A stretch of 59,714 nucleotides of DNA from Chromera velia (Eukaryota). Made by a program: the position numbers and the translations under genes. Position 1 is the first letter of the stretch, and the number at the start of each line of letters is the position of its first letter. The DNA lies in assembly GCA_018398765.1 (NCBI GenBank), contig JAHBMJ010000019.1, forward strand, positions 1 to 59,714. The letters run 5' to 3'. Under the pieces are notes generated by a model. That model saw only the letters and a program-made list of their open reading frames with translations, was not told the DNA's origin and did not search any database. Positions 7,282 to 59,100 of the stretch are shown piece after piece.

Positions 7282-10200
7282 TTAGCTCTGCTCCTCGTCC
7301 CCCTGCCATGTCTCTGAATCGAGCCGCGGCCTTGGAGCGGGAGTGTTGGATCTGTGACGTGACCCCGACGCTAGAGAATCTTGGGATGAAGACGTGTTGC
7401 CTCGTCGCAGTCGTTCTCTCTCCCGTTCCCTTTCCCTTTCCCTTTCCACCTCTCTTTCCCTCCCTTCTCTCCTTTCTCTCGCCCCGACTGCGCCTTCCCC
7501 TTTCCCTTCTTTTCCCTCCTCCTGCGGTGGTGGAGAATCGCCGCTCTCAGTCAGAGTCCCACTGGCCCCCCCTCCCCCCCCCCTCCCCTTTCCTGATTCT
7601 TCCTCCTGGTGATCGGAAGACTCCGCTGAGAGCCTGCTGCCTGACCCACCTGCACCTCCATACACACGCGCTCTGACCCTCTCCCACCTGCTGCCTGATG
7701 GCAGGGGCGCAACGGGCACCTTGCCGTTTCGGCCTCCGGCTCCGTTCCATGATGACCGACCGAGCGCCGTCTGCGCTTGTGCTCCCACTGCCTGGGCGTA
7801 CTGCTGCCCCAGTCCCCCGCGGGCTCCACCGCGCAGACCGTGTGCTGCGTTCGTTTGGTGTTCTTTTCTTGTGGGCGGGATGCCGGTGGGTGCCCGAGAG
7901 AGCAGAGAGCCGATCCCGTTGAGGAGATGGTCGATCTGCATTTATTTTTATCCAGAATTTATTTATTTATATCTATATATGAAGAATTCTGTACGAAAAT
8001 AAATGCGGGAGAGGAGAGAGCCGATCCCGTTGAGGAGATGGTCGATCTGCAATCAATCGATCGGAAGAAGAGAGGATTGAAGGGATACAGACAGACAGAC
8101 AGACAGACAGACAGGGTAAATAAATGGGTGGGTTGCTCTGCTTGGCTTGACGCGGAAAAGTGGGGACAGTCTGTTTGACCCCACACAAAGAAAGGAAAGG
8201 AAAAGAAGGCAATCAAATAAATCTTCAGCTGAGCTGTCAGCCAACAAACCGGGTTAGTAGGTCAAACCGATTGATCCACACAGGGGAAGGGGGACACCAA
8301 CCAAGAAAGAAAGAAAGAATGAAAGAAAGAGAAGGAAGGAACCCGAGGCAACGTCTCACGTCCGGACAGAATGTCACCAAGCTGCTGGGAAAAGGCGAAT
8401 AGCGAGAGAGAGAAAGATGGAGACACTTTAGCTCCCCCTCCTTTCATTCAGGGTCAGGCAAGACACGAAAAGCCAAAAGAGAATGAGTCCGAGCTCATGA
8501 ATCAGAACGTAGACTACCCATCTCATCTCATCACTCAATAGATGTGAACGAACTAATTCAATTCAATCCCATAATTCGAGTGCCCGCACCCACACATCCT
8601 TGCTAGGGTCATGTCACTTCGCCTCCCTTTCCACAAAAACGAACCAAGCAACCAACCTTTGTTTCTAGCAGTACCAGTCGCCCCTCAGTGTTCTGCTGCC
8701 TGCTGACGATCTCCAACACGTCCCGAGGAACAGGACTGCCCTGCCCTCTGCACACACACTCATTCATTCATCAACGCAGACAGGGAGACAGGGAGACGCG
8801 AGATGACTATGATTGCATGGGATCAAAGAACGAAAAAAAAAACACTCGCGCTTTGGTGTACTACAATACATATGTGAACTACAGCACATATAGCTGCACA
8901 TTTTTTTTCATTGCTCTCTGCAAGTGCCGCATGACCCTCACACACACCCACCCACAGCCTGGTTGACTGACCGACTGATTGACTGCTTAATTGCTTGCTT
9001 GACTGAATGACTGACTGACTGATTGCTTGCTTGCTTGCTCGACCGACAGACAGACAGACTGCTTGAGTGACTGACTGACTGACCGGAACCTCATGACGTT
9101 ATCGATGAGGATTTTGAGCTCGACCCCCGGGTCCGTCTCCGCAGTCAAATTCTGCACGTCCATCCGGTGGCACTCGAACTGAGTGAAGACATAAATCCGT
9201 GCGAGATCGGCCTCGTCGACCTCGAAGGACTGCAGGAGCTCCGACAGGCCCTTATCCTCCTCCAGAACAGATCCACACTCCTCCCAACAGACCATCACTC
9301 CGTCCAGACTCACCTGCATGCATTTATTTTCATACATACAGAATTCTTGCATTTATTTATTTTCTGAATCAAAAAGAGATCTGTCTGAAAATAAACGCAT
9401 GGCAGATCCACACTCCTCCCAACAGACCATCACTCCGTCCAGACTCACCTGCATGCATTTATTTTCATACACACAGAATTCTTGCATTTATTTATTTTCT
9501 GTATGAAAAAGAATTCTGTCTGAAAATAAACGCATGGACAGATCCACACTCCTCCTAACAGACCATCACTCCGTCCAGACTCACCTGCACCCAGCCACGC
9601 TTTCACATCCACATCCACACTGATCCACACACACACACGCACATATGGCCGGGAAAGCGAAGCTGAGAGGGCACATAACAAAATTGCTCCCCTCAGACCG
9701 CGCGTCGCTTGACGTTGGCAGGAAGATTTGACGCATGCAAAATCTACGGAACGCGCGAATCCAGCTGAGGAGGCACACAACAAGCTTTTGCGAGTTGCAA
9801 AAACAAGTATTTTTCGCTTTCCGGGCCATTCGCACTGAGTGCGTCAGATGGATACACACAGCTGTGGACAGACGGACATATGTGGACGTGCCGTCTGAGT
9901 CCTCTCGGGTCAACCTTGATCAATGCAAGCCTGCTCGCTGGGCTTCTTGCTTGATTTCCTCTCCTTCTGTCTGATGCCCTTCTTGTCTCGCCCTTCTCGT
10001 GGTCCCTTGATCCATTTGTCCAGTCCTTTTGCTTTCTGTTTGTCCCGCATCCATTTCCGTTTCCCCTCCTGGTTGGCTGTGAAGCAGTTTTCTTCTTTCT
10101 AACTAGGCAGGAAAGGAGGGGATGCAAACAAAACCGGGCACCGCTGTACATTTCTTGAACTGCGCACAAATTCATTTGCCATCTCTGTCTCCATGCGCAC

Positions 10201-56100: not shown

Positions 56101-59100
56101 TTCTTTTTTAAGAAGCAAAACCCTGTCTGACAGCGAGAGCATTCGATCGATCACGAGTGGTCGTCTCTCTGTATCCTGCTTGCGTGCACGTATCCATGTA
56201 TGTGTTTTTGTTCGTAGGCTTTCATGCAGGCTGTCTCCTTCCTTTTATGTATGTATGTGCCTTGTCTCCCTCCCTCCCTCCGTGCAGGGTCCGTCTTATT
56301 CGCACCCGCATCCAGAGTCCCTCCCCTGCTGCGGCAGTGCCTTCTTCCTTCCTGACTCTGCCGGCAGAGAGGGCGAGTCTCGGTGTCTCTGCTGCGTCCT
56401 TCGCAGTCGGCGCTCCTGTGAGAGAGAGGGCGGGGGCGGGGGGGGCACTGGACGGGAAGGCAACGTCAAGCCCCCCCCTGCTGTCGCCGCCGCCTTCCGG
56501 GAGAGGCCCTGCTGGTGAGATCGGGACAAGCGGGCCCGGCTGCCTGCCAAGTCCTAGTCCTAGTCCCCCTTTGCAGATTCTTTCAGTGCCAGTGCCCCCG
56601 CGTTGGCGTTGGGGGGAGGGGGGCAATGGGAATGGGGAGGCTGGAGAGGCGGCAGCAGGGCGGGAGAAGCAGAGGATGAAAAGTGTGACACGAGCTGTGC
56701 AGGGAGGTCCGCCATTGCGTCTCTCTGCAGCCCGCCCACCACCTCCCTTGAGAGGCCCTGGTGAGACTTCTTTCTGGTTGAGCGGGTCGGGTTCTTCGCG
56801 GACGGGCCGTGCCCCCTCCTACCCCTCGATTCCCCAAGTGATCTCCGACTGGGTTGTGGGGGATGAATTGGTGCCTCTGTTGCTTCTGGAACGGGAGAGG
56901 GAGACTGGAACACAGTCAGCAGGGGTGTTGCGGCAGGGGGGGGAAAGAGAATCTGCACCCCTGATGGCCATCCCTGAACTTCCCGCAGGGTCTATTCTGC
57001 GCTTCTGCTCGGGTCACGCGCATTCCTCGTCCTCCTCTGCCCTTTCGTCGTCCTCCCGAGTCTGGTTGCTGCCCGATATGCGGAGAGAGAAAAGGGACAC
57101 GGGGGGGGGCAGCTGTGAGAAGGAAGGAAGAGGAAGACAAAGGCGAGGGGGGACGGAGGAGGGGGAAGAGGGAGATGGAGACTTGGGGAGCCACTGGTTT
57201 GGTGCGATTCTGGCTGATGGCATCCAGGTACGTTTCTTTCTCTCTCTGTCCCTGTCTCACACTTCTTCATCTCCCTCTCTCTCTCTGTTTGTGTGTTTGT
57301 GTGTGTGCTGCTGAGTTCCATTGTTTTCTTTTTTTTGTGGAGAGAGAGGGCACAAGGCTGAATAGCTCGCGAAGTCTGTTCTTGACTGAAACACACACAA
57401 AGTCAGAAAGAAATTGGCTTCCTTCTTGATGGATGCACATCAACCCACCCGGTTGTCTGTGCTTTCTCTGGCACTCAGCTTTGGCTTGTCTGCCTCCCTC
57501 CTTCCCCCCCTTTCTATCTATGTCTGCCTGCCTGCCTGCCTGCCTGTAGAATCCCTCGAGGCTCGCTCGATCCCTTCTGGATCTGTCCGCGTGGGGGGAC
57601 GCGGCGTGTGGTCTGAACGCAGCCGCCGAGCAGAAGCAGTCACTGAGAGGAAGAGGAAGGGGGGCCGGAAAAAGGCAGCGGCTGAGAGGCAGTGTGAGAA
57701 GGCAAACACGGGGGAAACAATGGCGGTGTGTGTATGGGGAGATGCTGCAGGTGCAGCGGCTGCCCCAGAGATTTGTCAGGGGTGATGTTTGTCACCTGGG
57801 TGTCTGTCTGCAGAGGAATTTGGAGTTTGAAGGCGCCGTCTCTGCCTCTGCGGTGGACCCGAAAGGCAGAATTGTGCATCACCATCATCAGAGGGCAGCA
57901 GGTGGAGAGCGAGAAAGAGGTCTTCTTCTTGCCGAGAGGGAGGGTGTATTCAGTCAGCATTCGGGGGGGGGTAGGGAGCCAGCAGCAGAAAGGGAAAGAG
58001 GGAGGGAGAGGAAGCAGTCGGTGTGGAGCACGGGGATGAACAAAGTGAGAAGTCTGGTGTCAGACCACAAGGAGGCCCTGAGAAGGAAAATCGAAAAGAG
58101 TAAAAGAAAACTCGGGTGGTCTTCTTTGGGGGAGACAGTCATTATGTCGCAGACCCTCGTTAGAGCCGCGTGGCAAAGTCAGTGCATGCATGCATTCATT
58201 CATTTTCATACATTCATTTTCATCTTTTTCTGTACGAAGATGAATGCATGCATGGGGAGACAGTCTTCATGTCACAGACCCTCGTTAGAGCCGCGTGGCA
58301 AAGTCAGTCAGTGAGTGAGGGAATTGATTGATATCAAATTGGATTTACATACAGACAGTCACACACTTTGTTGAATGTCGCATTCGATGAATGGATTGGT
58401 TGTCACGAATTTGGCCACACAAGAGGCACCCACTAGCTCTGCACTTCTCTCTCTCTGAAGGAAGCAGAATTTCTCTCTCTCTCTCTCTCTGTCTCTCGAT
58501 GGAGGGAGCTCTCCTGTCAGTTTGCCTGCCTGCGTGCATGTCGGTTGATGAGATCAGCATTCCTTTCTCTCCCACCCTCCCTCCTTCCTCTTCTGCGTGG
58601 TTGTCCAGACGCTTGGTTGGTTTTTTTGTCTGTCAGTGAGCGACCTGCTGAACGAACAGCCATGCAGCCCAAATGAGGTGCATGCAGCCATTGTTTCTTT
58701 CTTTCTATTTCTGCCTGCAATTCTTGGGTCTCCCGTTCAGCGCACAAACAGTCAAGCTGCAGTTTATCCTTTTGTCCTGCCATCTGTCTGAACCTCAATC
58801 GCAGCCTCAAGTTTTCCCCCAAAGTCGTTTTGTATTCACGGAAAAGGACAAACAGAAAACGGAAGGAAGGCAGCAGGCGTGTCGTCATCAGAGGCCCTGT
58901 GCTTGTGGTCGATCCATCCATCATGAGTTGGTTTGCACACCCCCTCCCTCCCTCTCTCCCTCCCTCCTGCTTGCAAGGTGCATGCAGCTGAGTCTCCGAG
59001 CGGGAATGGGCACGTGGTGGTCATGGCTGCAGCTGGGAGGGGGGACGGGAGAGGGGACAGTCTGTGCGACAATTTCCTCCTCGGACCCTCCACTCCCTTC

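What the first reader, a model, noticed from the sequence alone, without database searches (positions are those of the whole stretch)
7895..58308. Recurring hairpin element that sits between long duplications of exon-intron junctions
Seen: a related AT-rich palindromic segment (left arm about TGCATTTATTTTCATACAGAATTCTT, right arm about AAGAATTCTGTATGAAAATAAATGCA) occurs at 7938-8006, 9319-9402, 9454-9538, 46834-46925 and 58184-58253, and as single arms at 26318-26704. It is always flanked by direct repeats of 46-65 bp of locus-specific sequence. At four of five loci, in three different genes, that duplicated sequence spans a splice site (three acceptors, one donor). Established: MITE and DNA-transposon target duplications are about 2-10 bp, typical non-LTR TSDs are usually under about 20 bp, and introner elements create new introns rather than duplicating existing junctions. 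Inference: this may be an undescribed mobile or repair-derived element whose long duplication regenerates the splice site next to the intact exon, so the insertion ends up hidden in the intron. It may be targeted to junctions, or it may survive only there.
Basis: partly seen in the sequence, partly recalled or inferred. Interest (0 to 1): 0.9.

Follow-up and report, generated by a model that had tools for sequence, protein, structure and literature searches.

The report
Hairpin insertions that duplicate splice junctions
In the alga Chromera velia a 70-105-base hairpin repeat sits between two copies of 43-61 bases of local DNA at all five of its sites in this window, and at four of them the copied stretch contains a splice site, so the gene is still spliced correctly; it is likely a small mobile element whose unusually long landing-site duplication lets it survive at exon edges.

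Summary
Observation confirmed. The window is Chromera velia. A profile scan finds five element loci, no others. All five are flanked by 43-61-nt direct repeats; random intervals show this in 36 of 1475 cases. Contigs built from reads span L1 and L5 unchanged. Spliced RNA contigs use the site next to the intact exon at L1, L2 and L5; the Gpi1 reading frame does so at L4. One off-window copy also shows a flanking repeat, and two abut an acceptor-like AG. The element is polar: a CC/GG end faces the exon interior, the other end merges with the target, mostly through TGCA; one locus has one arm only. This fits reverse-transcriptase insertion at nicks about 50 nt apart better than a MITE; no enzyme was found. 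Long duplications are known (Dualen, R9, IS1634). Survival alone predicts 11-14% junction-spanning (P about 0.001 for 4 of 5); GC plus TGCA preference raises this to 24-29%. Three element-free tandem duplications also span junctions, so the bias is not element-specific. No genome was held, so targeting is untested genome-wide.

The parts
7898..7940 (-). L1 duplicated segment, exon-side copy: holds the acceptor in use (exon starts at 7935 on the - strand) of an Ion_trans-domain gene
   Evidence: RNA joint 7935->8657 in X3 and X7; Pfam PF00520 on an upstream exon of the same hand-read gene
7937..8008 (-). L1 hairpin element, 72 nt; TGCA end shared with the target, CC end towards the dead exon copy
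   Evidence: (z -4.97); contig 7904-8044 with 0 differences
8009..8051 (-). L1 intron-side copy: original acceptor plus 38 nt of exon, now intronic
9267..9318 (-). L2 exon-side copy with the acceptor in use (exon starts at 9313)
   Evidence: RNA joint 9311->10295, cut +2, in X3 and X7
9315..9589 (-). L2: two units of element (about 9315-9402 and 9450-9537) plus 52-nt duplicate, period 135; the outermost exon copy carries a nonsense change
26318..26703 (.). L3: 84-nt array of a 50-nt duplicate and four one-armed elements that keep the CC/GG end, which shares 8 nt with the target; likely intronic, not at a junction
   Evidence: position read by hand
46772..46825 (+). L4 intron-side copy: original acceptor plus 40 nt of a Gpi1/PIG-Q exon
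46826..46930 (+). L4 hairpin element, about 105 nt; its two arms match each other over 21 nt, including a variant base that other copies lack
   Evidence: (z -5.82)
46927..46989 (+). L4 exon-side copy with the acceptor that keeps the Gpi1 frame (exon starts at 46940)
58129..58183 (+). L5 exon-side copy with the donor in use (58177/58178)
   Evidence: RNA joint 58177->58988 GT..AG in X3 and X4
58184..58255 (-). L5 hairpin element, reversed relative to the gene compared with the acceptor cases, so its TGCA end again faces the junction
   Evidence: (z -5.59); contigs 58154-58304 with 0 differences in X1 and X2
58254..58308 (+). L5 intron-side copy: 49 nt of exon plus the original donor, 3 differences
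21532..21729 (+). Element-free 65-nt triplication across an acceptor of the radical SAM gene; the last copy continues the protein
   Evidence: protein P0122
22525..22726 (+). Element-free 61-70-nt triplication across the next acceptor of the same gene; the last copy continues the protein
45623..45869 (+). Element-free 123-nt duplication across a Gpi1 donor; the first copy is the exon

Best explanation
A 70-105-nt hairpin repeat of Chromera velia lies between 43-61-nt copies of its target at 5 of 5 loci, and it is likely a non-autonomous retroposed mini-element that is inserted at two staggered nicks about 50 nt apart, so that fill-in would copy the DNA between them. Inferred steps: a reverse transcriptase of a LINE- or Penelope-type element copies the short template onto a nicked target strand; one end joins through a few shared bases (mostly TGCA), the other joins bluntly at the element's CC/GG end; the second arm is an inverted copy that can be missing (L3). 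An insertion wholly inside a coding exon would break the gene and be lost. One whose duplicate reaches a splice site leaves a whole exon with a rebuilt site on one side and a dead part-exon plus hairpin inside the old intron (shown by RNA at L1, L2 and L5). TGCA is both the element's end and the commonest acceptor here, and the targets are GC-rich like exons, which would push survivors to exon edges without any recognition of splicing. The arrays at L2 and L3 would arise later by unequal exchange between the duplicates.
For: 5 of 5 loci carry the duplicate, against 36 of 1475 random intervals, 13 of which were these loci; a sixth, off-window copy shares 13 nt between its two flanks, implying a repeat of about 29 nt or more (records 6 and 14). 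Polarity: CC end at the exon-interior junction in L1, L2, L4 and L5; TGCA shared with the target in L1, L2 and L4; 8 nt shared at the arm end of L3. L3 has one arm but a full-length duplicate. Ends are ragged (1-3 TGCA units) and the middles hold partial extra copies of the arm; inverted truncated copies and partial tandems are described for Penelope-like insertions (PMC8557442) and 5' inversions with microhomology for L1 (PMC2912911). Long variable duplications by LINEs: Dualen-4b over 50 bp, R9 126 bp (PMC9977147). Chromera has 5.2 Mb of LINEs (PMC4501334, supplement 11). Targets are 55-58% GC in 5 of 5 (L4: exon part only) against 46.8% non-coding and 58.5% coding. 23 of 56 hand-listed exon starts have TGCAG. 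Summed contig depth over L2 is 6991 (X1) and 3803 (X2) against about 11-33 on unique contigs, so the family is dispersed (a rough sign, not a copy number).
Against: No reverse transcriptase or autonomous partner was found; the genome was not held. No poly(A) tail, and Rfam gave 0 hits in the window, so there is no SINE head or hammerhead. Terminal inverted repeats with arms that co-vary within a copy (L4) also fit a DNA element. L1 and L2 have similar middles, so the whole unit seems inherited rather than built afresh each time. L5 shares only about 1 nt at its TGCA end, and the off-window copy with the repeat lacks a CC end. Even with GC and TGCA preference, 4 of 5 has P 0.014-0.028. 3 of 7 element-free duplications span junctions too (P 0.08). 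No empty allele was seen.
Confidence: 0.5

Rival explanations
1. Repair filler. Chromera makes 30-130-nt tandem duplications at exon edges through break repair or slippage at junction-flanking microsatellites, and the hairpin is only captured as filler from other genomic copies during some of these events; it has no mobilising enzyme of its own.
For: Element-free duplications span junctions at 21532-21729, 22525-22726 and 45623-45869; another abuts a donor (19302-19593) and one may span an acceptor (319-712). Junctions show short shared bases. Filler DNA between direct repeats at staggered breaks is a proposed route of intron gain (PMC3443670, passages).
Against: The same filler recurs at 5 of 12 long-unit duplications in the window, in a fixed polarity. 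Element-linked duplicates are tighter in length (43-61 nt) than element-free ones (33-123 nt). A passive filler needs donor copies, yet 0 of 5 loci lack a duplicate.
Confidence: 0.2
2. DNA transposon with long duplications: a MITE-like element moved by a DDE transposase that makes long variable direct repeats, as IS1549 and IS1634 do, or by an HUH enzyme as Replitron-1 does.
For: Imperfect terminal inverted repeats of about 20-25 nt, small size, variable middle, many copies; arms co-vary in L4. IS1549/IS1634 make 8-514-bp repeats (PMC2266710). Replitron-1 makes variable duplications (PMC10288648). Chromera has 6.3 Mb of non-autonomous class 2 repeats (PMC4501334, supplement 11).
Against: The two ends are not equivalent and are ragged; a one-armed copy has a full duplicate (L3); introner and MITE duplications are 3-9 bp (PMC9860276); the long-repeat IS elements are bacterial; Replitrons have short terminal direct repeats.
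Confidence: 0.18
3. Splicing-coupled retroposition. At acceptor-type loci the hairpin is the very 3' end of the excised intron RNA, which ends in UGCAG. That free end would pair with a nicked strand at another TGCAG acceptor and be reverse transcribed there, so the element would home to splice acceptors.
For: At L1 and L2 the intron ends exactly with the element plus G. The duplicate stops within 5-18 nt of the junction at 4 of 4 junction loci (P 1e-5 uniform, 1e-4 TGCA-anchored, 0.003-0.01 with a GC filter added). Two off-window copies abut AG at their TGCA end, one followed by GC-rich sequence. The plurality flank of 15 contigs in X1 begins CAGG right after the arm (agreement 0.44).
Against: L5 is a donor with reversed polarity and L3 is not at a junction. 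In X2 the plurality flank of 17 contigs at the same place is CATG. No copy carries sequence brought along from a source intron. G follows TGCA in 153 of 674 non-coding cases anyway.
Confidence: 0.12

Closest known systems
Dualen-4b_cRei LINE of Chlamydomonas and R9 LINE of rotifers (PMC9977147, passages; R9 only as cited there)
   Same: Long, variable duplication of the target on both sides of the insert (over 50 bp, median 900; 126 bp for R9), explained by the distance between two nicks.
   Different: Those are kilobase coding retroelements; this is a 70-105-nt non-coding palindrome with a narrower 43-61-nt duplicate, found at splice junctions. No partner LINE was shown.
Penelope-like elements, Naiad/Chlamys and non-autonomous Chlamys (PMC8557442, PMC9977147, passages)
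   Same: Very short truncated inserts (median 128 bp for Chlamys), inverted truncated copy next to the direct copy, partial tandems, an extension at one end only, microsatellite-rich and intronic targets.
   Different: No reverse transcriptase, pLTR or hammerhead was found; the one-sided extension here is 2-4 nt, not 30-40; Chromera is not named in those passages.
Introners / introner-like MITEs (PMC9860276, PMC12130899, PMC11282704, bioRxiv 10.1101/2020.10.14.339549, passages)
   Same: Small inverted-repeat elements made harmless by splicing; a splice site is taken from the duplicated target; bias to GC-rich genic DNA.
   Different: Introners make new introns and have duplications of 3-9 bp; here the duplicate is 43-61 nt and the element extends an existing intron. 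The word Chromera had 0 hits in the main text of the three papers where I searched it.
IS1549 and IS1634 of Mycobacterium and Mycoplasma (PMC2266710, passages)
   Same: Inverted-repeat elements with long, variable direct repeats (8-514 bp) of unknown mechanism.
   Different: Bacterial, transposase-coding, with symmetric ends.
Intron gain by tandem genomic duplication or by break repair with filler (PMC3443670, passages)
   Same: A duplicated segment supplies splice sites; filler lies between direct repeats.
   Different: Those make new introns at AGGT inside exons, with short repeats and no recurring filler.

Membership tests
MITE / TIR DNA transposon | terminal inverted repeats at both ends | tested here: inconclusive
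   Imperfect arms in 5 copies at 4 loci, one arm only at L3; ends ragged and unequal
MITE / TIR DNA transposon | short target duplication of fixed length (about 2-10 bp) | tested here: not met
   43-61 nt at 5 of 5 loci
MITE / TIR DNA transposon | small, non-coding, many dispersed copies | tested here: met
   70-105 nt; summed depth 100-300 times that of unique contigs over L2; other loci seen
MITE / TIR DNA transposon | autonomous transposase element with the same termini | not testable with these tools
   No genome held
Introner | the insertion itself becomes a new intron | tested here: not met
   The introns are 721, 983 and 810 nt and hold the element at one end only
Introner | splice site taken from the element or its target duplication | tested here: met
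   The site in use lies in the duplicate, and the element's TGCA end forms part of the acceptor at L1 and L2
Non-LTR retroposon (LINE-driven SINE or fragment) | variable-length target duplication | tested here: met
   43-61 nt in the window, about 29 nt or more off-window
Non-LTR retroposon (LINE-driven SINE or fragment) | one constant end, the other truncated or inverted, with microhomology at junctions | tested here: inconclusive
   CC/GG end kept at 5 of 5 window loci, other arm missing at L3, 4-8 shared nt at 4 of 5; the off-window copy lacks CC
Non-LTR retroposon (LINE-driven SINE or fragment) | poly(A) or simple-repeat 3' tail | tested here: inconclusive
   1-3 TGCA units at the ends, no poly(A)
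SINE | tRNA-, 7SL- or 5S-derived head | tested here: not met
   0 Rfam matches at gathering score in the window
Non-LTR retroposon / Penelope-like element | partner element with reverse transcriptase sharing the 3' end | not testable with these tools
   No genome held
Penelope-like element | partial tandem plus inverted truncated copy | tested here: inconclusive
   Extra inverted arm pieces of 8-11 nt inside L1, L2, L4 and L5; too short to be diagnostic
Replitron | short terminal direct repeats and a Y1 HUH transposase partner | tested here: inconclusive
   Ends are inverted repeats, but TGCA is its own reverse complement; partner not testable

The most novel reading that the evidence does not exclude
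A splice-site-homing retro-hairpin: the element sits at the 3' tip of introns, is released by splicing as an RNA ending in UGCAG, primes on other acceptors, and copies about 50 nt of exon so that the host gene stays whole. Where the target is TGCAG|GT inside an exon it would also create brand-new introns with 50-nt duplications, an introner route not among those I read.
Probability: 0.12. Interest if true: 0.9.

Novelty: new variant of a known kind. Interest (0 to 1): 0.63.

Why it matters
It shows a way for mobile DNA to enter exon edges at no apparent cost: copy the splice site instead of making a new intron. 7 of about 98 hand-mapped splice sites in this window carry a local duplicate (4 with the hairpin, 3 without). 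If that is typical, thousands of Chromera introns end in dead part-exons with intact spare splice sites. That is a natural experiment on how the spliceosome chooses between two nearly identical sites 111-271 nt apart: RNA contigs show only the exon-side site, although the original acceptor is intact upstream, and use of the spare site would add stops or shift the frame. It also points to an unidentified enzyme that nicks about 50 nt apart, and warns that repeat finders tuned to 2-20-bp duplications will miss or misclassify this family.

Tried and rejected
Whole-genome scan: no genome held. Pattern scan of metagenome contigs gave 2 single-arm matches without a second arm in the 150 nt printed (L001, L002), rejected as chance; viral contigs gave 0; genome contigs was not scanned. 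Assembly artefact: rejected at L1 and L5. MITE with a 4-bp TGCA duplication that gained the long repeat later: rejected because 0 of 5 loci lack the long repeat. Known RNA family: 0 Rfam hits. Homologue searches with the Gpi1 exon and the L2 exon found nothing among longer proteins, and the representative-protein search never ran, so L4 has no transcript-derived check. One off-window contig (records 3 and 11) matched only a donor plus ATGC repeat and was dropped before counting off-window copies (2 of 3 kept). The duplicate lengths could be read as about 43 and about 53 (one helical turn apart), but the boundaries are ambiguous by up to 10 nt and n is 5, so I make no claim. Earlier findings: none for this genome or sequence.
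Full report
Setting. The window is 59,714 nt of intron- and microsatellite-rich eukaryotic DNA. An exon at 18066-18440 matches protein P0001 at 99%, whose cluster holds a protein named Chromera velia Cvel_14335. The two DNA runs that hold the window have 196 and 201 million letters of contigs, close to the 193.6 Mb genome (PMC4501334). 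No whole genome was held, so genome-wide statements rest on contigs laid on two stretches.

Two-armed copies lie at 7937-8008 (L1), twice in 9315-9537 (L2), 46826-46930 (L4) and 58184-58255 (L5); four one-armed copies lie in the array 26318-26703 (L3). A profile built from the arms found 14 arms at E <= 0.0015, all at these five loci. 4 of 5 two-armed copies fold better than all 200 shuffles. Each locus is flanked by a direct repeat of 43-61 nt with 0-3 differences. Of 1500 random intervals of the same size, 1475 were free of N, and 36 had such a flanking repeat; 13 of the 36 were these loci and the rest fell in arrays and microsatellites. Contigs built from reads span L1 (X1) and L5 (X1, X2) with no difference, and the duplicated part of L5 collapses into a 34-nt contig of 2-3 times the depth. 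X1 and X2 may be the source data of the assembly, so this excludes an assembler error, not a library error.

Splicing. RNA contigs join 7935 to 8657 and 9311 to 10295 in X3 and X7 (two studies) and 58177 to 58988 in X3 and X4 (one study). In each case the site beside the intact exon is used, and the element with the dead part-exon lies in an intron of 721-983 nt. At L4 the exon-side acceptor keeps the Gpi1 frame open and the upstream copy does not; Pfam positions 78-110, 112-152 and 178-263 fall on successive exons. Use of a spare site would add stops or shift the frame at all four loci. No joint to a spare site was listed, but 17 joints were cut from the table and contigs drop rare forms.

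Beyond the window. Summed depth over L2 is 6991 in X1 and 3803 in X2, against about 11-33 on unique contigs: roughly some hundreds of close copies, arrays included. Five loci per 60 kb would extrapolate to about 16,000; the gap may reflect divergence among copies or an atypical window. Laying on L5 brought three other contigs. One (1350 nt, in X1 and X2) has the element with a flank that begins CAG at one end and shares 13 nt with the flank at the other end, which implies a duplicate of about 29 nt or more. A second has its TGCA end next to a base that completes TGCAG on the other strand, followed by GC-rich sequence; its far side was not shown. The third matched only a donor and an ATGC repeat and was dropped. 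At the L2 arm end the plurality flank was CAGG for 15 contigs of X1 but CATG for 17 contigs of X2, so that signal is weak.

Anatomy. The element is polar. At L1, L2, L4 and L5 a CC(A) end abuts the point where the dead exon copy stops, with no clear shared bases (L5's C run is ambiguous). The other end runs into the target through TGCA at L1, L2 and L4, and through about one base at L5. This end always faces the intron side of the duplicate, so the element flips relative to the gene between acceptor and donor cases. The duplicate holds only 5, 5, 14-18 and 6 nt of intron. L3 keeps the CC end, shares 8 nt with the target there, and lacks the other arm. The middles carry extra partial arms; L1 and L2 have similar middles; L4's arms share a variant that other copies lack.

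Is it targeted? On a hand-made map of 56 exons and 98 splice sites, only partly verified, placements of a 43-60-nt duplicate that are not wholly exonic span a junction in 11-14% of cases, giving P about 0.001 for 4 of 5. All five duplicates are 55-58% GC. Requiring GC >= 0.54 and a TGCA anchor raises the share to 24-29% (P 0.014-0.028); a 10-fold weight for exon-touching targets gives P 0.29-0.36. Against element-specific targeting: of 7 element-free tandem duplications with units of 33-123 nt, 3 span junctions (21532-21729, 22525-22726, 45623-45869; P 0.08), one abuts a donor and one may span an acceptor. The window was flagged for this pattern, so all these P values are optimistic.

Mechanism. 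Shown: the repeat, the duplicates, the splice choice, the polarity. Inferred: two nicks about 50 nt apart, insertion by a reverse transcriptase with joining through shared bases, loss of exon-internal insertions, later array growth (0.5). Rivals: a repair filler riding on a general duplication process (0.2), a DNA transposon with long repeats (0.18), and splicing-coupled homing (0.12). No enzyme was identified.

Comparison with what is known. Long duplications are reported for Dualen-4b (over 50 bp) and R9 (126 bp) (PMC9977147), for IS1549/IS1634 (8-514 bp; PMC2266710) and, of variable length, for Replitron-1 (PMC10288648). Penelope-like insertions have inverted truncated copies, partial tandems and a one-sided tail (PMC8557442). 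L1 has mostly 10-20-bp duplications, with microhomology at truncated and inverted ends (PMC2912911, PMC4245944); a lepidopteran RTE has 20 bp (PMC2887409). Introners have 3-9-bp duplications, make new introns and favour GC-rich genic DNA (PMC9860276, PMC12130899, PMC11282704, bioRxiv 10.1101/2020.10.14.339549). Tandem duplication and filler repair as routes of intron gain are reviewed in PMC3443670. Of all these I saw passages only. Of PMC4501334 I saw passages, section 34 and supplements 10 and 11; it lists repeat classes by size only, so this family may sit unnamed in its 6.3 Mb of non-autonomous class 2 or 13.8 Mb of unclassified repeats; 14 of its 16 supplements and the supplements of the introner papers were not read. 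Ten searches listed no paper whose title or abstract start describes a hairpin element that duplicates existing splice junctions; the library lacks most subscription papers. Unchecked earlier notes of this scan report hairpins with long duplications in another marine eukaryote and at gene ends in archaea; they are leads, not support.

Verdict. A real and apparently undescribed family: it works like an introner in being hidden by splicing and like a long-duplication LINE in its footprint, but it fails the short-duplication test of MITEs and the new-intron test of introners, and its membership among retroposons is untested. New variant of a known kind; interest 0.63.

Noticed in passing
window 21532-21729, 22525-22726, 45623-45869: Element-free tandem duplications that span two acceptors of the radical SAM gene and one Gpi1 donor; junction duplication looks like a general trait of this genome.
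   Followed up: yes
window 319-712: 33-nt unit, 11.9 copies, 99% alike; on the - strand it reads as a pyrimidine tract, an AG and 3 nt, just upstream of a likely start codon, so it may be an amplified acceptor.
   Followed up: no
window 19302-19593: 39-nt array that starts 3 nt after a donor of the radical SAM gene.
   Followed up: partly
window 9647-9850: A different dispersed repeat of about 200 nt in the same intron as L2; very high summed depth at 9675 and diverged copies on other contigs.
   Followed up: no
window 12810-13200, 13975-14000, 43590-43640: Another short intronic repeat family, attached to GACA microsatellites, in two genes and both orientations.
   Followed up: no
window 25959-26205: 94-nt unit, 2.6 copies with nested 43-nt sub-repeats; stops in all frames; gene context unclear.
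   Followed up: no
window 48552-48588: 19-nt duplication that includes a donor-like AG|GTGAG.
   Followed up: no
window 9300-9318 (- strand): The L2 exon begins with a perfect donor-like GTGAGT right after its acceptor, so the duplicate is also a proto-splice site; no zero-length or recursive splicing could be tested.
   Followed up: no
window 17200-23107: ArsS-like radical SAM/Cys-rich gene (PF04055 plus PF12345 in relatives; Cvel_14335) with close bacterial and algal homologues.
   Followed up: partly
window 11544-11930, 58550-58917: RNA runs X3 and X4 differ from the window and the DNA runs at several single bases, which suggests another allele or strain; L1, L2 and L5 are still spliced the same way, and X3 holds the L5 element.
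   Followed up: no
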